Notes under the pieces: model-generated | What the model saw: the letters and a program-made list of their open reading frames with translations, nothing else | Database searches by the model: none | What the model was told of the DNA's origin: nothing | Part shown: positions 52,557-61,161 of the stretch, piece after piece | Numbering within the stretch: position 1 is the first letter of the stretch | Layout: each line of letters starts with the position of its first letter | Assembly (NCBI GenBank): GCA_036679645.1 | Contig: JAZDCY010000056.1 | Span: forward strand, 1 to 64,000 | DNA length: 64,000 nt | Source: Gemmatimonadota bacterium | GTDB taxonomy: Bacteria > Gemmatimonadota > Gemmatimonadetes > Gemmatimonadales > GWC2-71-9 | Direction: 5' to 3' | Program-made: the position numbers and the translations under genes

Positions 52557-53927
52557 GTGACCCCAGTTGCACCCATCCGCGAGACGACGCGGGCCCTCGT
52601 TCGGCTGGCTCTGCCGGTCGTGGCCGTGCAGGTCGGCATGATGTCGATGGGGGTCGTCGATACCATCATGGTGGGTCACGTCTCCGCCGCTGACTTGGCC
52701 GCGGTCGCGCTGGGGAATCTCTATTTCTTTACAACGTCGATCTTCGGCGTCGGTGTCCTGATGGCCCTCGATCCGGTCGTGGCTCAGGGTGTGGGGGCCG
52801 GCGATGACGCCACGATTGCACGCGCCGTCCAGCGCGGCCTCATCGTAGCCGTGGGGCTTGCCATTTTCACGTCGCTGCTGCTCGCACCGGCTGCACCGCT
52901 GCTCCACGTGCTCCGCCAACCCGACGACGTCGTTCCCATCGCCGGCCGGTATGCCCTAACGCTGATCCCCAGCATGCTGCCGTTCTTTGCGTTCGTCGTG
53001 TTCCGCCAGACCCTCCAGGCAATGAAATGGGTCGCTCCCCTCGTGATCGCCACGGTCGCGGCGAACATCGGGAATGTCGTCTTCAACTGGGTACTCGTCT
53101 TTGGCAAGCTCGGGTTCCCGGCGATGGGCGCGGTCGGGAGCGGCTGGGCAACCAGTCTCAGCCGATGGCTGATGGCGTTGGGTCTGCTGGCACTCGCGTG
53201 GCGCCGGATCGTGCCGTTCGTTCTTCCGTTCCGCCGCGAGGCCCTAGCCTGGGCGCCGCTAGCCCGCATGCTGAAGCTGGGCGCGCCCATAGGCGTTCAG
53301 CACCAACTCGAGTTCGGTGCCTTCGGCGTAACCGCCCTGCTGATGGGAATGCTGGGAACGATCGAGATGGCGGCCCATCAGGTGGCCCTCAGCATCGCGT
53401 CGCTCACTTTCATGGTCCCGCTCGGCATCGGCGCCGCTGGCGCCGTGCTGGTAGGCCAGGCCATTGGACGGGATGACGCGGCAGCCGCCCGCCGCGCCGC
53501 GGGAGTCTCGCTTGCACTGGGAGCCACCTTCATGGTATTGAGCGCCGCCGTCATGCTGACGTTCCCGGGAGCCATTGCCCGCCTGTATACCGAGGAGCGC
53601 CCGGTCATTCTGCTGGCAGCATCGTTGATCCCAATTGCCGGGATGTTCCAGGTGTTCGACGGGACGCAGGTCGTGGCTGCCGGGGTGCTGCGCGGCGCGG
53701 GCGACACGAGGGCTCCTATGGTGATCACGCTGATAGGGTTTTGGATGATCGGGCTACCGGTGAGCGCGCTGCTGGGATTCGGTACGCGGGCGGGACCGCG
53801 CGGGTTGTGGTGGGGCCTCGTCGTGGGACTCGGGGCCGTGGCCGCTTTCCTCCTCGCCCGGGTCCGGTCGCGTTTCCGGCGAGATCTGCGGCGAGTGATC
53901 ATCGACGAGGAGCCCGAAACGGCGTGA
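52557..53927 (+). CDS. MATE family efflux transporter (NorM-like)
   Basis: VDTIMVG, AAHQVA, FQVFDG, LRGAGDT. Confidence 0.92.
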   Translation: MTPVAPIRETTRALVRLALPVVAVQVGMMSMGVVDTIMVGHVSAADLAAVALGNLYFFTTSIFGVGVLMALDPVVAQGVGAGDDATIARAVQRGLIVAVGLAIFTSLLLAPAAPLLHVLRQPDDVVPIAGRYALTLIPSMLPFFAFVVFRQTLQAMKWVAPLVIATVAANIGNVVFNWVLVFGKLGFPAMGAVGSGWATSLSRWLMALGLLALAWRRIVPFVLPFRREALAWAPLARMLKLGAPIGVQHQLEFGAFGVTALLMGMLGTIEMAAHQVALSIASLTFMVPLGIGAAGAVLVGQAIGRDDAAAARRAAGVSLALGATFMVLSAAVMLTFPGAIARLYTEERPVILLAASLIPIAGMFQVFDGTQVVAAGVLRGAGDTRAPMVITLIGFWMIGLPVSALLGFGTRAGPRGLWWGLVVGLGAVAAFLLARVRSRFRRDLRRVIIDEEPETA

Positions 53928-53943
53928 GAGGAGTACCTTTGCC

Positions 53944-54384
53944 ATGATGCGAGTGACCACACTGCAGCGCTGTGGCGAGACTGCCCTCATGGTGGTCGCG
54001 CTCGTCCTCGCCGGCTGCGGTGAGCCGCTGTTCCGCGAGACCGCTCAGGCGCTCGTTCAGGGCACGGTGAGCGCGTCCGCGGGGTTTCCGGCCAACGGCG
54101 CGACCGTCGTCTTCGACGTGACCCGTGGTTCCGACGCGACGCCACTCGGTGTCGAGACTGCGACGGCCGACGCGCTCGGGCGTTATTCGGTCGTGCTTGC
54201 CGTTTTCGCCGAGCCGTTTGACGGCAACATGACCGTACGGGCGTCGTGGGAACTGGGGGGCACGCGCCAGGAGGCCACCATCACGAACATCACGGTGCCG
54301 TTCCGGCGACCGGCAGACGGCATCGAGACGACACGGGTCGACATTGTCCTTGCACCGGTCTCCACACAGGCCTCGCGTCAGTAG
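53944..54384 (+). CDS. Hypothetical lipoprotein
   Basis: LAGC lipobox, beta-sandwich-like; GAGGAG SD. Confidence 0.7.
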   Translation: MMRVTTLQRCGETALMVVALVLAGCGEPLFRETAQALVQGTVSASAGFPANGATVVFDVTRGSDATPLGVETATADALGRYSVVLAVFAEPFDGNMTVRASWELGGTRQEATITNITVPFRRPADGIETTRVDIVLAPVSTQASRQ

Positions 54385-54503
54385 GGTGTGGAATCACGCA
54401 ACGTGGCGGACCATGAACCGCGAGTGCGACGAGCGGCGGTGACCCGCCTCGTCGCGAGCAAGAGGTTGCGGCGGTGGGTACCGCTGCCGCGAACGACAAG
54501 CGA

Positions 54504-54543
54504 GCGACCGTGGCGGAATTGGTATACGCGCAGGATTTAGGAT
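54504..54543 (+). repeat. Duplicated 5' half of tRNA-Leu (att site, left island boundary)
   Basis: 40 bp identical to 58387-58426, then a degenerate continuation (ctgtggggt). Confidence 0.92.
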
Positions 54544-54669
54544 TCTGCTGTGGGGTAAACCGTCCTCGTCACTACCGGACACCAAGTGACACAATGGACC
54601 ACAGTTACACCCGCATTGGCACCAGTCGAGAACAGCCCGTTTTTCCGTGTCTTACCTCTCGTGTGCGCC

Positions 54670-54692
54670 AGTTCATGGACAGAACGTGGACA
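54670..54692 (+). repeat. 23-bp direct repeat copy 1 (integrase arm-site-like)
   Basis: agttcatggacagaacgtggaca, identical to 58286-58308. Confidence 0.85.
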
Positions 54693-55170
54693 GTGGCCTG
54701 GCAGCTCGGCCGGCGGTCGTTGCAACCGCAGGACGTGGCCGAGTGGGGGAACGGGGTCTATCTTCGCGCAACGGAGAGCTTGGGCTCGTCCGCCAACGCC
54801 AGGAACCGCGTCGATAGAACTGGCCGGGCAGTTGGCGGGCGCCACGTGCCTAACCTCTGGGAACGAGGTCAATGTGATCCACGACGTGGGGCGCTATCAC
54901 ATCGTTGACCCGCGCACGAAAGCCCGTGAAATGGCGACGGGCCTTGTTTGGAGCGAGTTGGTCCCACGAACCCCACCGCGGGGACGAGGCACTCGTGTAC
55001 TCGACGAGCAGCCGCCGTCTCTTACGACCCGTGAGCTTTAGCGGGCGTGTCAAAGAGGCAAGCGACCCCGCAACGTCGCCCCAATCGGCGATGAGCCTCT
55101 TGAGAAATCGGGTTTGATCAGCACGGGTGGGTTTGGATTCTGGGGCGGCGCAATCGGGGCCGGGCTGCTA

Positions 55171-56553
55171 TCAGCGATCCCGCGCGGTCAGCGAGCCTTC
55201 TTTGTGCTGTTTCGGCCAGTAGCGAACGCTCTGCAAGTACTCAGTCGATTCTGCATGCTCCGTGAATTCAAGGAGGTTGCCGAGCTTGGATGTAAGCGCT
55301 GCACGCACCTCACTTGAGCTCGCGAAGAAGAATTCCTTGCGTGCGTTGGCGTGGTTGACTCGCTGATCGGCAAAGTGTTGGTGCAATTCGGATTCGAGGG
55401 TGACGGCATCTTCGGAGAAGAACAGGCAGTGTACATCAAAGCGGAAAGGAACCGATGCACCACTCAGTTCATTGATTCTGTCGAGTGGCTCCAGGCGGCG
55501 GGTTAGGCCGATCTTGACGACGTTGATACCAAACGCGCCCCGGTTCGAAATTACATACACGTAGCCAGCTCTGATGTTAGCCGCCCTGTAATCATTTCGA
55601 GCAATCGCTTCATCGAGATCAGCAAGTCTTTGCTCCAATTCAGCGTCTGATGATCCGCTGCTCTTGAGAGCTTCAAGTGTATTCAAAATGTGGCTGCGCT
55701 CTTTGTCGAGCTTTTCTCGTTCTGCCGTAAGTTCGGCCTGGACCCTCCGCTCCTCGCGGAGGCGCGCGCGCTCTTCACGTGCCTCTTCGCGTTCTTCCTG
55801 CTTCTTCATTAGGTAATCAGCAGTCAATTCGATCTCTTCGACACGTAACGCATGGAATTCGTCGCTGATGTGCATTTGCATCATTTTCCCGAGTTTCATG
55901 ATCGCGGCCCGCGATGCTTCGACCCGCCGCTTCGCCGTGACGACGTTGCCGGCTCGAAGCGAACGCAAGCTATTGTCCACTTCTGCGTTGTACGCGCGTA
56001 ACATTAGCTTGGCGAGGTCATTGGACATCCTGCGGCCTTTGGCAAGCGAATTGTCGAAGGTGAACATGTTCGACCTTTCGATTGCGTGCTTGGCCTTGAC
56101 GAGAGTTGCGATGCGTGTGCCTAGATTCTTGAGCCGATCTTTGTACGCGTCTGCATTCTCAAGCGGGTGGTGGTATCGGTAAATTCCGACTTCTTGAAGT
56201 ACCCATTCGTCGTCAAGCACGACGACTTCACTTGGTGATAAAGTCGCATCAAGCTGAGCCCGCAGTGCGACATTCTCCGCTTCAAGTAACGCGATCCTTC
56301 GTTCGGCATCGCGGGGCACAGAGTCCCCTGAGTGCCCCTCCCCAGTCGCGGACGAAGCGCTCCCTTCCCCAGTGTCGCCCTCCACATGAACCGAGCTCTC
56401 GTCGCTGCTCGAGTCGGTGGATAGCCAAAGTCGCCAGCCCTCAGGTGGATCAGGCCAAGTAGGATCCGGTGTCCACCCCTTTGGCGGCGTCCAGCCGCTG
56501 GGAGGCTTGGGCCAGCCGGGTGGCGGATTGAAGACGATGCGCTCGTCCGTCAT
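55171..56553 (-). CDS. DUF4041 plus GIY-YIG (T5orf172/MUG113) nuclease, SNIPE-like
   Basis: KLMLRAYNAE..KKQEEREE (DUF4041 and coiled coil); AGYVYVISN.GAFG..VVKIGLTRR..SVPFRFDVH..RKEFF; Pro/Trp-rich N-terminus. Confidence 0.88.
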   Translation of the reverse strand: MTDERIVFNPPPGWPKPPSGWTPPKGWTPDPTWPDPPEGWRLWLSTDSSSDESSVHVEGDTGEGSASSATGEGHSGDSVPRDAERRIALLEAENVALRAQLDATLSPSEVVVLDDEWVLQEVGIYRYHHPLENADAYKDRLKNLGTRIATLVKAKHAIERSNMFTFDNSLAKGRRMSNDLAKLMLRAYNAEVDNSLRSLRAGNVVTAKRRVEASRAAIMKLGKMMQMHISDEFHALRVEEIELTADYLMKKQEEREEAREERARLREERRVQAELTAEREKLDKERSHILNTLEALKSSGSSDAELEQRLADLDEAIARNDYRAANIRAGYVYVISNRGAFGINVVKIGLTRRLEPLDRINELSGASVPFRFDVHCLFFSEDAVTLESELHQHFADQRVNHANARKEFFFASSSEVRAALTSKLGNLLEFTEHAESTEYLQSVRYWPKQHKEGSLTARDR

Positions 56554-57812
56554 GAGCGGCGGATTCCCGAAACATCAGCAGCGACGAGGTCAAACGGATT
56601 CTTGGAGACAGCTGCACCAAGGTGACCAAGAGTAGCAGCGGGAACGACGCTCGAAAGATTGAACTCAAGGAACGAATCACGTTCTCCTCCGACCGCCACG
56701 AACGGGATGTACGTCTCCCTGCCAGTCGCCGGGTCGATCGTCTCCGTCCCGACCTCCAACGAGATCGTTTTGATTAGGCTGCGACGGTCTGCCTCGAACA
56801 CCTCATGCAACGACCGAAGCGCGATCTGATGCACCGCGGCTGAATACCGTTCCTTGCACGCTTTCTGTGGTAACGATGTCGAGGTGATTTCATCTGAAGA
56901 TTTGTTGTACTTATAGGCGCGCGTGTCAGGCACTTTGTCAGGGCCAGGTACCAACACGCGCAGCCGCAGCTCAGCCGCAGCGGCATCGAACTCAAAATCG
57001 TGTCGAATCGGAAAATGCGCCGGGTACACCGAGTTGGATAAGACGATTGCCACGTACTCTTGAACCGCCTCAACGGCTCCGTAACCGAGATTGGCGATTA
57101 AAGTATCGATCGCCTGGTTGTGCGCCACGGCCTCTGCCTCACGCGCTGAGCATTCTTCTGCGTATCGCGCCCGCTCTGCCTCAAGTGTCGAAACACGTTG
57201 AGCCTCCGTTTCAGCGTGCCCACTTGCTTCGGCCTTGCGGGCCGATTCGACTTGAACCAACTCGGACTTCCATCTAGCTACGGCGCGCTTGTGAGCGGAA
57301 GTGGCTTCGGCGACCGCCTTCTCATGCTTCTTTTTGCCAAGCAACCGTCGGAGTCCCTTGGGTGCGGGAGGCGGCGTAAATATCGGCTCCGGTGGATCGG
57401 CTTGAGGATTGGGTGGTGGCGTGGGTACCTCGAGGTCGCCGCGGTCGAACGGTGGGTGCTCGGCGACGGTGCGCAGCGTGTCCAAGTCCACGTAGTCATC
57501 TATATCGAGAGTCGCGGCAAGCAACGAATCAATATCGTGATACACTTGGGATAGTTCGAGGTTTTTTTTCTCAACCTCCGCCTCCATCGCGGCAACGTGT
57601 GCTTCTTGAGCTGCTTTGGCGAGTCGTTTTTGTTCTGCCGCATCGGCACGAGTTAACTGAGCAGCTGCACGTTCTTCCGCCTTTCGGGCACGTTCAGCTT
57701 CGGCGCTCGCGGCCTTGCGCGCGCGCTCGGCTTCCCGCTCTGCCCGAGCTTGCTCTCGGTCAGCGAGCTTTGCTTGATGCTGAAGTTCAGCGAAGAAACC
57801 GCGTCGTGCCAT
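56550..57812 (-). CDS. Coiled-coil protein resembling the N-terminal part of long Mrr-type restriction proteins, without a nuclease domain
   Basis: AVQEYVAIVLSNSVYP, QIALRSLHEVFEAD, IDPATG, LGAAVSKNP; ATGA overlap with the nuclease gene. Confidence 0.7.
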   Translation of the reverse strand: MARRGFFAELQHQAKLADREQARAEREAERARKAASAEAERARKAEERAAAQLTRADAAEQKRLAKAAQEAHVAAMEAEVEKKNLELSQVYHDIDSLLAATLDIDDYVDLDTLRTVAEHPPFDRGDLEVPTPPPNPQADPPEPIFTPPPAPKGLRRLLGKKKHEKAVAEATSAHKRAVARWKSELVQVESARKAEASGHAETEAQRVSTLEAERARYAEECSAREAEAVAHNQAIDTLIANLGYGAVEAVQEYVAIVLSNSVYPAHFPIRHDFEFDAAAAELRLRVLVPGPDKVPDTRAYKYNKSSDEITSTSLPQKACKERYSAAVHQIALRSLHEVFEADRRSLIKTISLEVGTETIDPATGRETYIPFVAVGGERDSFLEFNLSSVVPAATLGHLGAAVSKNPFDLVAADVSGIRRS

Positions 57813-58067
57813 CCTTGACCCTTGCTGCGGACTTTAAGATGCGAGCACCCAACCGAGATAGGATGCGATCTTGTCCGGGCCGGCGCCAGGGCATTTCTGG
57901 GGCATGGCATGTTGTTTTTGGGACATCCGGCTGGGAGACTCAACTACCGACCCCATGGGACCCTTGGCGAACGCCTCGGCGTCGTGGCTTGTGACAGTTT
58001 CTGACAGTTCTGGCGGCGGGGCCACACGGCTCGCCATCACGCCCCGCCGCCTTCATCTTTCCCCTCC

Positions 58068-58240
58068 ATGGCGGACTCGCTGGATCGTCTCACTTCGGCG
58101 CTGGCCGACCGCTACCGCATTGATCGCGAACTCGGTAGCGGTGGTATGGCGACCGTCTATCTCGCTGAGGACCTCAAGCACGAGCACCACGTTACGCCAA
58201 GGTGTTGAAGCCCAACCTTCCCCATGCCGTCGGCATCGTC
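58068..58240 (+). pseudogene. Ser/Thr protein kinase N-terminal remnant
   Basis: MADSLDRLTSALADRYRIDRELGSGGMATVYLAEDLKH, then a frameshift to KVLKP; stop at 58208. Confidence 0.82.
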
Positions 58241-58285
58241 AACGAGAGCGACCTAGCGGAGGGTGTGGCGAAGCTTGCAGCCGCG

Positions 58286-58308
58286 AGTTCATGGACAGAA
58301 CGTGGACA
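58286..58308 (+). repeat. 23-bp direct repeat copy 2
   Basis: Identical to 54670-54692. Confidence 0.85.
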
Positions 58309-58386
58309 ATCGGGCGTCGCGGAGGGGTGAGCGTGCAAACGCCGGAGTACAGTAAGTCGGTATGTTGCAATAGAATGTGTAATCAC

Positions 58387-58468
58387 GCGACCGTGGCGGA
58401 ATTGGTATACGCGCAGGATTTAGGATCCTGTGGGGTCACCCATGAGGGTTCGAGTCCCTCCGGTCGCA
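58387..58468 (+). tRNA. tRNA-Leu (anticodon TAG)
   Basis: Acceptor gcgaccg/cggtcgc, anticodon arm cagga-tttagga-tcctg, long variable arm, GGTTCGAGT T-loop; no encoded CCA. Confidence 0.96.
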
Positions 58469-58482
58469 TCGTTCCCCTGATA

Positions 58483-59844
58483 GTGCTCGCCGGCCTCCTA
58501 GCTGCGGGCGGATGCGGCGACGCCGCCGCGGGCCCCGAACCTCCGCGCGCCGTGCTGATCTCACCCGATACGCTACGCCTCTCCATTGGTGACACCGGGC
58601 AGCTCACGGTCACGATCGCCGACCTCTCCGGGAATCCGCTCGACAGCGCCGAGGTCACGTGGACCTCCGTGAATCCCACAGTGGTCACCGTGGACTCCGC
58701 AGGCGAAGTGGCGGCCGTGGGGCTGGGTCTCACGCACGTCATCGCCGTCTCCGCCGGGTTCGTCGATTCCGCCGTCGTGCGCACCGGGCTAGCCTTCACT
58801 CAGATCACCGCGGGAGATGCCCACACGTGCGGGTTGGTGCCGGGCGGCGCGGCCTTTTGCTGGGGCGACGGACGTGCCGGACAGCTGGGGAACGGAGGCA
58901 CCGAGGCGAGCGCCGCGCCCGGGCGCGTGACGGCGGGAGCCGTTTTCACGGCGGTGACCGCCGGCGCGACCCACACGTGTGCACTCCAGGAGAACGGCAC
59001 ACCTCATTGCTGGGGTCAGGGGAGCCTTGGGCAACGGGGCGACGGGACGACCAACGCTGTGTCGCTCCCAACGCCAGTTGCGACCAACCTGGTTTTCCAG
59101 TCGCTGAGCGCGGGCTGGAACCATACCTGCGGCATCACCACCAGCAGCCGTCTGTACTGCTGGGGATCCAACCTGTTCGGCCAGCTGGGAGACGGTGGCT
59201 TCGTTCTGCAGCTGACCCCGGACAGCGCGGTCACGGCCGATCGGTTCACCGATGTGCGGGCCGGCCGGAACCACACCTGCGCCGTGAGCCTCGACGGTCA
59301 GGCCTATTGCTGGGGCCGTAACGACGAGGGACAGCTCGGCTTGGGATCGACCTCGGCACCGGTACCCATTCCAACACCGCTACCGAGTGCTCTCACGTTC
59401 CGCACCATCGTGGCGGCCGACGGCACCTATTCATGCGGGCTCTGGCTTACCCGCCGGCTGCTGTGCTGGGGTCGCGGCAACGATGGCCAACTGGGCACGG
59501 GTACGACCGTCGAGCGCGATTCTCTGGTGGTAATCGACTTCACGATCCCGTTTGCCGCCGTCGATGCCGGCACCACTCACACCTGCGGCACCACGACCGA
59601 ATTCCAGACGTACTGCTGGGGGACGTCACGACTGGGTCTCCCCGGCGCGACGCGCAGCAACGTTCCGTTGCGCATCCCCATTGCACTCACCACGATCACA
59701 ACCGGCACGTTCCACACCTGTGGCCTGTCGGGCGAGCCCGGACAGGCCTACTGCTGGGGCGGGAACAACCGGGGTCAGTTGGGGACCGGGTCGGCCGCGC
59801 CGAGCGATGTTCCGGAACTCGTGGCGCAGCAGATTCGGTTCTAG
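58483..59844 (+). CDS. Lipoprotein with an Ig-like domain and RCC1 beta-propeller repeats (start uncertain)
   Basis: AGGC lipobox, VTWTSVNPTVVTV Ig-like segment, repeated HTC..CWG...GQLG. Confidence 0.85.
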   Translation: MLAGLLAAGGCGDAAAGPEPPRAVLISPDTLRLSIGDTGQLTVTIADLSGNPLDSAEVTWTSVNPTVVTVDSAGEVAAVGLGLTHVIAVSAGFVDSAVVRTGLAFTQITAGDAHTCGLVPGGAAFCWGDGRAGQLGNGGTEASAAPGRVTAGAVFTAVTAGATHTCALQENGTPHCWGQGSLGQRGDGTTNAVSLPTPVATNLVFQSLSAGWNHTCGITTSSRLYCWGSNLFGQLGDGGFVLQLTPDSAVTADRFTDVRAGRNHTCAVSLDGQAYCWGRNDEGQLGLGSTSAPVPIPTPLPSALTFRTIVAADGTYSCGLWLTRRLLCWGRGNDGQLGTGTTVERDSLVVIDFTIPFAAVDAGTTHTCGTTTEFQTYCWGTSRLGLPGATRSNVPLRIPIALTTITTGTFHTCGLSGEPGQAYCWGGNNRGQLGTGSAAPSDVPELVAQQIRF

Positions 59845-59910
59845 GTGCCCTGCAAGGCACTTCCACTTCCAGTTAGGTTTCAGGCCGGGTTCACTTCAGC
59901 AGACGGTTAC

Positions 59911-61161
59911 GTGGTGACGGATATTCTGATTACGAGAGCCGGTGAGGAACCGGGGGCCGCGAGCTTCAAGATCGAGGTCCCCGCGGAGCGCGTGCAACAG
60001 TTCGAGCACACCGCGGCCTCGGCGTTTGCCAAACGGGCACGCCTCCCCGGATTCCGGAAGGGCAAGGCCCCGTTGGCGGTGGTGCGCAAGCGGTTTCACG
60101 ACGCAATTCGCGAGCAGGTTGTGCGAGACGTCGTCGGGGAGAGCTGGAAGGCGACGCTGGATCAAGAATCTCTCGAGCCCATTGCGGACCCGCGGGTGCA
60201 TGACCTGAAGTTTGAGGCTGGGTCATCGCTCACATTCGAGTTCCACGTTGAGCTCAAACCAGACGTTGCGGTCGGGCGCGTAGGCGGGTTCACTGTAACC
60301 CGGCAGCCACGCGCGGTGACCGACGAGATGGTCGATCACCACCTGGAGGAACTCCGTCGGCAGCGGGCACCCTGGGTCCCTGTCGAGGGGCGCCCGGCCG
60401 CGACGGGCGAGATGGTGAGTGTCACGCTGGCAACGCTTTCGGATGACGAGCCGGACGAGGCGAAGCCCTACCAGATCGTGCTAGGAGAGGATCAGGCAAT
60501 CCCGGATGTCGAGCGGCTCATCGGTACGCTCGAGCCCGGCGGGACCACCGATGGCGATGTGACGTTCCCCGACGATTTCCCCGACGAGAGTAAGCGGGGT
60601 CAGACGCGCCAAGTGCGTATCGTGCTACAGGAGGTCAAGCGACGCGATCTGCCCGACCTCGACGGCGCGTTCGCCGGCGAGGTAGGTGACTTCGACGACC
60701 TGGCTGCCCTCCGTACCGCCGTGCGCGAGGACATCGAGGCAGAGGCCCGTCGCGAGGCAGACGCCCACGTTCGCAAGCAACTCGTCGAGCAACTCGTGGC
60801 AGCCAACGACATCCCTGCCCCACGTCCACTGGTCGATCGGCTGCTGCACGCCTATCGTGAGGCCTACAGTATTCCCGACGAGACCCTCGAGCAGTTCTTC
60901 ACCGAGTTCCGTCCAATCGCGGAAGCCCAGGTGAAACGGGATCTGCTGCTCGACCAGATCGTCGCACAAGAGCATCTCCGCGCGTCGGAAGAAGAGCTGG
61001 ATTCGCGTATCGCCGAGATCGCGGAACGGCGCAACGCCGAGCCGGGTGAGGTGTACGCCCAATTGCAAAAGGCCAAGCGTCTCAAGGCACTGGAACAGAC
61101 GATCACCGAAGACAAGGTCTTCGATTTCCTGCTATCACAGTCCACGGTGACCGAGAGCTGA
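59911..61161 (+). CDS. tig: Trigger factor
   Basis: LPGFRKGKAP ribosome-binding motif, VTFPDDF; lies before clpP-clpX. Confidence 0.93.
   Translation: MVTDILITRAGEEPGAASFKIEVPAERVQQFEHTAASAFAKRARLPGFRKGKAPLAVVRKRFHDAIREQVVRDVVGESWKATLDQESLEPIADPRVHDLKFEAGSSLTFEFHVELKPDVAVGRVGGFTVTRQPRAVTDEMVDHHLEELRRQRAPWVPVEGRPAATGEMVSVTLATLSDDEPDEAKPYQIVLGEDQAIPDVERLIGTLEPGGTTDGDVTFPDDFPDESKRGQTRQVRIVLQEVKRRDLPDLDGAFAGEVGDFDDLAALRTAVREDIEAEARREADAHVRKQLVEQLVAANDIPAPRPLVDRLLHAYREAYSIPDETLEQFFTEFRPIAEAQVKRDLLLDQIVAQEHLRASEEELDSRIAEIAERRNAEPGEVYAQLQKAKRLKALEQTITEDKVFDFLLSQSTVTES

What the first reader, a model, noticed from the sequence alone, without database searches (positions are those of the whole stretch)
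54504..58468. Island integrated at the 5' end of tRNA-Leu rather than the usual 3' end
Seen: the first 40 nt of tRNA-Leu(TAG), through the anticodon loop, are duplicated 3.9 kb upstream of the intact gene. Known: tRNA-targeting integrases normally duplicate the 3' part and leave the element downstream. Inference: this element restored the 5' half, so the intact tRNA now depends on island-side sequence for its leader and promoter. No integrase is present, so the island is decayed or mobilised in trans.
Basis: partly seen in the sequence, partly recalled or inferred. Interest (0 to 1): 0.7.

Follow-up and report, generated by a model that had tools for sequence, protein, structure and literature searches.

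The report
Decayed island rebuilding tRNA-Leu front half
A 3.9-kb leftover of a mobile element sits inside this bacterium's only leucine (TAG) tRNA gene the less common way round, supplying a new front half of the gene and likely a new promoter while carrying a predicted anti-phage gene pair; the arrangement is real but is already known, even at this same tRNA.

Summary
Confirmed. Window 54504-54543 copies nt 1-40 of the genome's only tRNA-Leu(TAG) (58387-58468), 3,883 bp upstream. Both same-genus relatives have one intact gene, and its leader matches the DNA before the fragment, not before the intact copy. The fragment is therefore the native 5' end and the working gene is a hybrid.

Correction: 22 codons of a tyrosine-integrase tail survive at 58235-58300 (best hit of 103,271 genome frames), fused to a host kinase fragment, so the island is decayed. 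Arm-type repeats and a candidate -10 box flank the junction. The cargo is a SNIPE/PD-lambda-1 homologue plus a nuclease-less Mrr-like partner.

The same 5'-type scar occurs in 15 of 251 family relatives and in several other phyla. Its integrases are not one clade (AU p=0.0006), and 16 of 23 element leaders carry a -10 motif.

The class is published: Islander lists 159 of 3,919 islands, and pelagiphage HTVC011P does this at tRNA-Leu(TAG). This scan noted it at least eight times on other DNA. New member of a known kind; interest 0.3.

The parts
54382..54387 (+). Candidate native -10 hexamer in front of the host leader unit (inferred; now cut off from the working tRNA)
   Evidence: TAnnnT at the matching place before the leader in G001 and G002; no transcript data
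54398..54503 (+). Native host leader of tRNA-Leu(TAG): genus-level structured unit that begins like the tRNA 5' end
   Evidence: 74-78% identical to the DNA before the intact tRNA in G001 and G002; alignment score far above shuffles; fold z -2.6; no Rfam match
54504..54556 (+). attL: displaced native 5' part of tRNA-Leu(TAG); exact for nt 1-40, damaged similarity to nt 50; crossover inferred in the anticodon loop, 54536-54542
   Evidence: not called a tRNA by ARAGORN or Rfam
54666..54692 (+). Left copy of a 27-nt internal direct repeat (23 nt exact), likely integrase arm-type sites
   Evidence: similar 22-24-nt end repeats in integrase-bearing 5'-type elements L133, L140, L172, at like offsets in L140 and L172
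55171..56553 (-). SNIPE / PD-lambda-1 homologue (DUF4041 + T5orf172/GIY-YIG), 460 aa, Pro/Trp-rich N-terminus, no transmembrane helix by hydropathy
   Evidence: Pfam; PADLOC PD-Lambda-1 E 5e-101; hydropathy
56550..57812 (-). 420-aa coiled-coil + alpha/beta protein resembling the N-terminal part of type IV (Mrr-like) restriction enzymes, without the C-terminal part; overlaps the SNIPE homologue by 4 nt
   Evidence: PADLOC mREase_IV profile 19-378 of 544, E 3e-32; adjacent to the SNIPE homologue in 54 of 55 metagenome loci with room; model pLDDT 91, no PDB fold match
58068..58234 (+). Frameshifted 5' fragment of a host-type Ser/Thr kinase gene, fused to the integrase tail
   Evidence: 70-83% DNA identity to many kinase paralogues in the same genome, with a 1-nt gap near 58196
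58235..58300 (+). Remnant of a tyrosine integrase C-terminal helix (22 codons); the frame ends at the stop 58328-58330
   Evidence: best-scoring of 103,271 six-frame segments of the genome with an HMM of related integrase tails, E 0.008
58282..58308 (+). Right copy of the 27-nt repeat, likely arm-type sites
58371..58376 (+). Candidate element-borne -10 box (5 of 6 to the sigma-70 consensus), 10 nt before the restored tRNA; no recognisable -35
   Evidence: the full two-hexamer scan found nothing
58387..58468 (+). attR: restored hybrid tRNA-Leu(TAG), element-side 5' half + host 3' half; crossover inferred at 58419-58425; only Leu(TAG) gene in the assembly
   Evidence: sequence just 3' of it continues as in G002
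58471..61161 (+). Host flank: RCC1-repeat lipoprotein and trigger factor (then clpP, clpX), syntenic with G001 and G002

Best explanation
This is the decayed remnant of an integrative element that was likely inserted by its own tyrosine integrase at the anticodon loop of tRNA-Leu(TAG); it carries the 5' half of the tRNA and a likely promoter in place of the usual 3' half, so the element lies upstream of a rebuilt gene. Shown: the duplicated 5' half, the native leader stranded on the left, the hybrid intact gene on the right, foreign GC, and an integrase tail where intact relatives have their integrase. Inferred steps: (1) recombination between attP (arm repeats - integrase end - promoter - tRNA nt 1-40) and attB in the 7-nt loop; (2) the tRNA is now transcribed from the element's -10 box; (3) a later rearrangement replaced most of the integrase with a kinase fragment, so the islet can no longer excise itself; (4) it persists because its right end feeds an essential single-copy tRNA and because its SNIPE-like gene pair likely gives phage defence.
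For: Exact 40-nt duplication ending just past the loop. Empty-site layout leader-tRNA-RCC1-tig in 2 of 2 same-genus genomes; the leader matches the left side only. GC 0.585 against 0.634/0.643 on the flanks. SNIPE-like gene not found in G001 or G002 with this query. Integrase tail is the top genome-wide hit. Among 5'-type elements with both ends, all 8 with an integrase or remnant detected have it co-oriented and ending at the restored tRNA: L042, L133, L140, L143, L145, L146, L168, L172. Of 83 pattern matches in genome contigs, 73 are 5' fragments; 16 have an intact copy downstream and 0 upstream. 15 of 19 multi-copy family genomes hold such a fragment. TAnnnT lies 6-18 nt before the restored tRNA in 16 of 23 element leaders; shuffles gave mean 4.0, maximum 9 of 1,000, and a shifted window gave 1 of 23. 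Published precedent at this isoacceptor.
Against: No same-species empty allele and no excision junction: no joints are listed in X1 or X2 at 95% likeness. Unitigs collapse the 40-nt repeat, so they cannot themselves phase the two junctions. The integrase remnant is only 22 codons at E 0.008, the profile subfamily was chosen after I saw the resemblance, and a broader integrase-tail profile did not detect it. The promoter is a motif match only: no -35, the two-hexamer scan found 0, 7 of 23 element leaders lack the motif, and the spacing window was set after seeing the sequences. In 10 of the 18 other complete elements no integrase was detected.
Confidence: 0.88

Rival explanations
1. tRNA-dependent lysogeny type: the element broke the host tRNA through a short core and brought a complete tRNA of its own.
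For: The element does disrupt the only Leu(TAG) gene, and this mode exists at Leu(TAG) in pelagiphage HTVC025P and in actinophages.
Against: The shared block is 40 nt, not about 10. The intact tRNA's 3' end runs straight into host sequence that matches G002 and leads to RCC1-tig. No orphan 3' half exists elsewhere in the genome.
Confidence: 0.02
2. Never autonomous: a mini-cassette mobilised in trans by an integrase encoded elsewhere, with the 'integrase tail' a chance match.
For: Both att ends and the arm repeats are near-perfect. 10 of 18 other complete elements show no integrase. The genome has other tRNA-linked integrases.
Against: The tail sits where intact elements end their integrase and is the top genome-wide hit. 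No member of that integrase subfamily was found in G000 at E 1e-15. The 27-nt arm repeat was seen nowhere else in the genome among the BLAST hits printed. Present-day trans-mobilisation by an incoming helper remains possible and is compatible with the best explanation.
Confidence: 0.06
3. Assembly artefact, or a free 3.9-kb circle stitched in at the 40-nt repeat.
For: In X1 the repeat is its own unitig, and the island unitig starts and ends in it, a graph that an empty site plus a circle would also give.
Against: Island depth equals chromosome depth within 4-8% (93 against 97-101). The segment encodes no replication gene. The same layout recurs on single contigs in 8 family genomes.
Confidence: 0.03
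4. Local tandem duplication of the tRNA 5' region followed by unrelated gene insertion, with no site-specific recombinase.
For: This genome has tandem tRNA-5'-derived repeats upstream of tRNA-Pro and tRNA-Met.
Against: The duplication has 0 nt of upstream identity and stops at the recombination-typical loop. Arm repeats and the integrase tail are present, and 3'-type islands at this tRNA start at the same loop.
Confidence: 0.01

Closest known systems
Genomic islands with a 5' tDNA fragment, anticodon-centred site A (Islander, PMC4383910: 159 of 3,919; first case Zhao & Williams 2002, seen here only as a citation in PMC6563490)
   Same: 5' fragment upstream of and co-oriented with the intact tRNA; length above 2 kb; crossover at the anticodon loop; tyrosine-integrase ancestry.
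   Different: No integrase ORF left, so Islander's integrase filter would reject it; an uncultured Gemmatimonadota host (taxon inferred from titled records of matching family elements).
Pelagiphage HTVC011P integration in SAR11 tRNA-Leu(TAG) (bioRxiv 10.1101/410191)
   Same: Same isoacceptor; host gene split in the middle and complemented by a phage-borne 5' part lying downstream of the integrase; metagenome attR fragments in that paper join integrase, tRNA-Leu and trigger factor.
   Different: An active prophage that also carries a whole extra tRNA-Leu; here a 3.9-kb non-phage remnant with defence-like cargo.
tRNA-dependent lysogeny (PMC10865867)
   Same: An essential single-copy tRNA is interrupted and the element supplies tRNA sequence and a promoter.
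   Different: There the core is about 10 bp, no tRNA is rebuilt at the junction, and a separate full tRNA complements; here the gene is rebuilt at attR.
SNIPE / PD-lambda-1 anti-phage nuclease (bioRxiv 10.1101/2025.11.03.685801), cargo only
   Same: DUF4041 + GIY-YIG/T5orf172 architecture; PADLOC E 5e-101.
   Different: No transmembrane helix (34% of homologues lack one, per the preprint); Pro/Trp-rich N-terminus; constant upstream Mrr-N-like partner, which the passages I read do not mention ('Mrr' 0 occurrences).

Membership tests
tRNA-targeting island with 5' fragment (Islander class) | Cognate tRNA fragment co-oriented with the intact gene, 5' fragment upstream | tested here: met
tRNA-targeting island with 5' fragment (Islander class) | Length 2-200 kb | tested here: met
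   3,883 bp
tRNA-targeting island with 5' fragment (Islander class) | Tyrosine integrase ORF in or overlapping the island | tested here: not met
   no PF00589 hit on C53; only a 22-codon tail. Filed as a decayed relic of the class, not as an Islander-callable island
tRNA-targeting island with 5' fragment (Islander class) | Empty site in relatives | tested here: met
   2 of 2 same-genus genomes; no same-species strain available
tRNA-targeting island with 5' fragment (Islander class) | Crossover in the anticodon loop (site A) | tested here: inconclusive
   identity ends at nt 39-40 in 18 of 19 complete elements, but the cut site is inferred from the end of identity only
tRNA-targeting island with 5' fragment (Islander class) | Excision / circular form | tested here: inconclusive
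   no joints in contigs of X1 or X2; contigs collapse the repeat and drop rare forms
tRNA-targeting island with 5' fragment (Islander class) | Element supplies the working tRNA promoter | not testable with these tools
   motif support only; no RNA holder listed
tRNA-dependent lysogeny | Short core, tRNA not rebuilt at the junction, separate full element tRNA | tested here: not met
   40-nt block, hybrid gene continuous with host 3' flank, one tRNA only
Prophage or ICE | Virion or conjugation genes | tested here: not met
   only two long ORFs in the island, neither of those kinds; PHROGs not scanned
SNIPE / PD-lambda-1 | DUF4041 followed by a GIY-YIG-type nuclease domain | tested here: met
SNIPE / PD-lambda-1 | N-terminal membrane anchor | tested here: not met
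   peak 19-residue hydropathy 1.05; 0 of 36 paired homologues above 1.8 in the first 120 residues as extracted, some of them N-terminally truncated; the preprint allows anchor-less homologues
SNIPE / PD-lambda-1 | Anti-phage activity | not testable with these tools
   needs an assay

The most novel reading that the evidence does not exclude
Front-half restoration is a repeatedly re-invented strategy rather than a rare accident. Unrelated integrase lineages flip onto the same anticodon-loop site by capturing the host's promoter plus tRNA 5' half into attP. At tRNA-Leu(TAG) of Gemmatimonadales and other little-cultured phyla these elements approach the classical orientation in frequency, stack in tandem, and after losing their integrase persist as promoter-donating defence islets in front of tig-clpP-clpX. 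This one carries an undescribed two-gene, anchor-less SNIPE system.
Probability: 0.45. Interest if true: 0.5.

Novelty: new member of a known kind. Interest (0 to 1): 0.3.

Why it matters
The single locus is an ordinary, decayed example of a minority class.

The comparative set adds three things. (1) 73 precisely cut 5' scars at one isoacceptor across several phyla, with polyphyletic integrases, make the origin of reversed att sites testable. (2) The data give motif-level support that such elements bring the promoter of an essential tRNA. (3) Integrase-requiring island finders will miss these relics, and with them defence cargo such as the conserved SNIPE-plus-partner pair.

Tried and rejected
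- Two-hexamer promoter and terminator scan of 53900-60000: 0 sites.
- Rfam on 53900-58700: only the tRNA.
- A broad integrase-tail HMM missed the remnant, and so did tblastn with one family integrase; only the subfamily HMM found it.
- Sequencing runs: no RNA holder listed. X3 and X4 showed only short pieces over the island. X2 holds a relative (about 88-90% over long flank contigs) with only partial pieces of the cargo genes, so it neither shows nor excludes the island. No empty-site or circle joint was listed.
- Viral contigs pattern scan: 12 loci. 10 are intact tRNAs, mostly in phage tRNA clusters; one (L095) has an integrase pointing at the 5' end of an intact tRNA; one (L102) is a 5' fragment.
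- 3'-end pattern scan: 15 of 154 matching genomes have 2 or more hits. They were not individually verified and some are duplicates or other tRNAs, so the 5':3' ratio is only rough. 3'-type junctions at this tRNA were seen in G014, G017, G053 and, by integrase position, G176.
- Four of 19 multi-copy family genomes were rejected as 5'-type: G021 duplicate contig, G070 other isoacceptor, G110 two intact copies, G354 contig end.
- The partner protein got no Pfam, NCBIfam or PDB fold match; Atlas neighbours are mostly unnamed. No complex prediction was run.
- Group I intron considered and rejected: the fragments end at or after the last loop base, and no 3' exon follows.
- Papers not held: Zhao & Williams 2002, Williams 2002, TIGER. 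PMC12884075 and 10.1101/2022.07.05.498093: passages read, nothing bearing on the question.
Full report
OBSERVATION. ARAGORN and Rfam place tRNA-Leu(TAG) at 58387-58468; it is the only Leu(TAG) among 50 tRNA genes of the 92.7%-complete assembly. Its first 40 nt recur exactly at 54504-54543, 3,883 bp upstream on the same strand; the first mismatch is at nt 41. A gapped match extends to nt 50. Chance expectation for the 40-mer is about 1e-16. The segment between has GC 0.585, against 0.634 and 0.643 on the flanks. In run X1, probably the source sample and so not independent, three unitigs tile the region without differences at depths 101, 93 and 97. The repeat itself collapses to a 40-nt unitig, so these contigs cannot phase the junctions.

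WHICH COPY IS NATIVE. Both same-genus genomes carry one intact tRNA followed by RCC1-tig-clpP-clpX. Their upstream 100 nt match window 54402-54503 at 74-78%. Local alignment scores of the window's left leader against them are 77 and 54 (500-shuffle maxima 33 and 28); the leader of the intact copy scores 17 and 15, at shuffle level. So the left copy is the native 5' end. The intact gene is element 5' half plus host 3' half, and its 3' flank continues as in G002. Gene content further upstream differs between the three genomes, and the lipoprotein was not found in the fetched loci. The SNIPE-like cargo gene was not found in G001 or G002 with this query (0 of 2).

ANATOMY. Inside lie two overlapping minus-strand genes: a PD-lambda-1/SNIPE homologue (PADLOC E 5e-101; DUF4041 + T5orf172) and a 420-aa protein matching positions 19-378 of a 544-position type IV restriction profile. 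They are adjacent in 54 of the 55 metagenome loci that had room, out of 80 fetched. At the right end a frameshifted piece of a host-type kinase gene runs into 22 codons that match the C-terminal helix of a Gemmatimonadales integrase subfamily. With an HMM of those tails, built from the 30 loci, this is the best of 103,271 six-frame segments of the genome (18.4 bits, E 0.008; next 13.9 bits). A broader profile missed it, and I chose the subfamily after noticing the resemblance, so this is good but not decisive evidence. A 27-nt direct repeat (23 exact) lies 126 nt inside the left end and 101 nt before the tRNA. Three integrase-bearing relatives show 22-24-nt end repeats, two at like offsets; the other 15 elements share only 8-13 nt. 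Reading these as arm-type sites rests on general knowledge of lambda-type integrases.

RECURRENCE. In 400 family genomes plus this one, 252 match a 5'-half pattern, and 19 relatives have two or more copies. I fetched all 19; 15 hold 5' fragments, 8 with the intact gene downstream on the same contig, and one has two stacked fragments. A scan of genome contigs for the 5' half followed by non-tRNA bases gave 83 matches: 8 intact variants, 2 too short to judge, and 73 fragments, titled among others Planctomycetota, Nitrospirota, Acidobacteriota, Verrucomicrobiota, Zixibacteria and Gemmatimonadota. 16 have an intact copy downstream within the fetched flank and none upstream. In 18 of 19 complete elements identity stops at nt 39-40. 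Eight of the 18 other complete elements retain an integrase or remnant, always co-oriented and ending at the restored tRNA. Classical 3'-type islands use the same loop in G014, G017 and G053. The same integrase subfamily also shows 5' geometry at other tRNAs in 5 loci; 5' fragments were confirmed in 3 (SeC twice, Lys-TTT), and none was seen in the short contig stretches of the other 2. A 33-protein tree needs 6 label changes, and an AU test rejects one clade for the 12 5'-geometry integrases (p 0.00056). Several labels rest on gene geometry only, and two long branches are unsure.

PROMOTER. TAnnnT lies 6-18 nt before the tRNA in 16 of 23 element-side leaders (window included; one junction was dropped for too little flank), in 16 of 19 left leaders and in 20 of 26 single-copy loci. 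Shuffle means are 4.0, 3.4 and 1.9; windows shifted by 30 nt give 1 of 23, 2 of 19 and 1 of 26. In L133, L145 and L167 the element leader is nearly a copy of the left leader (17-21 nt of continued identity). This fits capture of the host promoter, but also tandem insertion of like elements. In the window the candidate is at 58371, with no -35 and no hit in the strict scan. The spacing window was chosen after inspection and kin are not independent. No transcript data exist.

MECHANISM. The most likely history (0.88) is integrase-mediated insertion at the anticodon loop with an attP holding promoter plus 5' half, then loss of most of the integrase, leaving a locked defence islet whose right end serves an essential gene. 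The duplication, native leader, hybrid gene, cargo and remnant position are shown. The crossover point, promoter use, order of decay and defence function are inferred.

WHAT IS KNOWN. Islander (PMC4383910; parts 1-2 of 3 read) accepts this configuration and counts 159 of 3,919 islands with a 5' fragment. PMC6563490 (passages)' recombination considerably less frequent and cites Zhao & Williams 2002, which I could not open. The pelagiphage preprint 10.1101/410191 (passages and section 11; figures and supplements, which hold the att sequences, not seen) reports 5' complementation for several phages, including HTVC011P at tRNA-Leu(TAG), and metagenome attR fragments next to trigger factor. tRNA-dependent lysogeny (PMC10865867, passages) differs in not rebuilding the gene. 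The SNIPE preprint (passages) mentions anchor-less homologues, and I saw no partner gene in those passages. Searches listed no paper on 5'-type islands in Gemmatimonadota or on polyphyly of their integrases; the library lacks most subscription journals. This scan's earlier notes describe the same class at eight other loci (unchecked AI notes).

VERDICT. It is a new, decayed member of a known kind; interest 0.3.

Noticed in passing
window 55171-57812 (-); L219-L298: The SNIPE/PD-lambda-1 homologue without a membrane anchor (Pro/Trp-rich N-terminus in 21 of 36 extracted homologues) is paired with a nuclease-less Mrr-N-like coiled-coil protein in 54 of 55 loci, often with a 4-nt overlap; possibly an undescribed two-component defence system.
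   Followed up: partly
G000:C7:3955-4480 (L306), G000:C9:139426-139620; window 54398-54503; L041 11912-12235: Tandem repeats upstream of tRNAs built from tRNA 5' pieces. Before tRNA-Pro(GGG) there are about 164-nt units of promoter-like sequence + tRNA nt 1-21 + about 100-nt GC-rich insert + tRNA nt 24-41. Similar shorter units precede tRNA-Met, and a unit starting like tRNA-Leu occurs once in the window and G001 and four times in G002. They look like miniature 5'-type cassettes or upstream tRNA-linked repeats.
   Followed up: partly
window 54382-54410 versus 58371-58400: The sequence from the candidate native -10 box into the leader unit closely mirrors the element-side -10 box into the tRNA, hinting that the 'native' leader may itself derive from an older duplication or insertion.
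   Followed up: no
window 58471-58520: The RCC1 lipoprotein gene lacks the ATG and charged N-region seen in G001 and G002. Its frame is open through the whole tRNA, so it may start inside the tRNA gene, use a weak start, or be damaged.
   Followed up: partly
G000:C7:187426-187478: Exact copy of tRNA-Lys(CTT) nt 3-55, 8.3 kb downstream of the intact gene on the same strand and lacking both ends; it fits neither standard island configuration.
   Followed up: no
L299, L300, L301: 5'-type islands at tRNA-SeC (two stacked fragments in G157) and tRNA-Lys(TTT) in the same family, driven by the same integrase subfamily that elsewhere makes 3'-type islands.
   Followed up: partly
G000 contigs C4, C7, C8, C9, C24 and others: The genome holds dozens of paralogous Ser/Thr kinase genes with near-identical N-termini, often clustered.
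   Followed up: no
L138 1154 (-): A 5' tRNA-Leu(TAG) fragment followed within about 15 nt by the start of another tRNA-like sequence.
   Followed up: no
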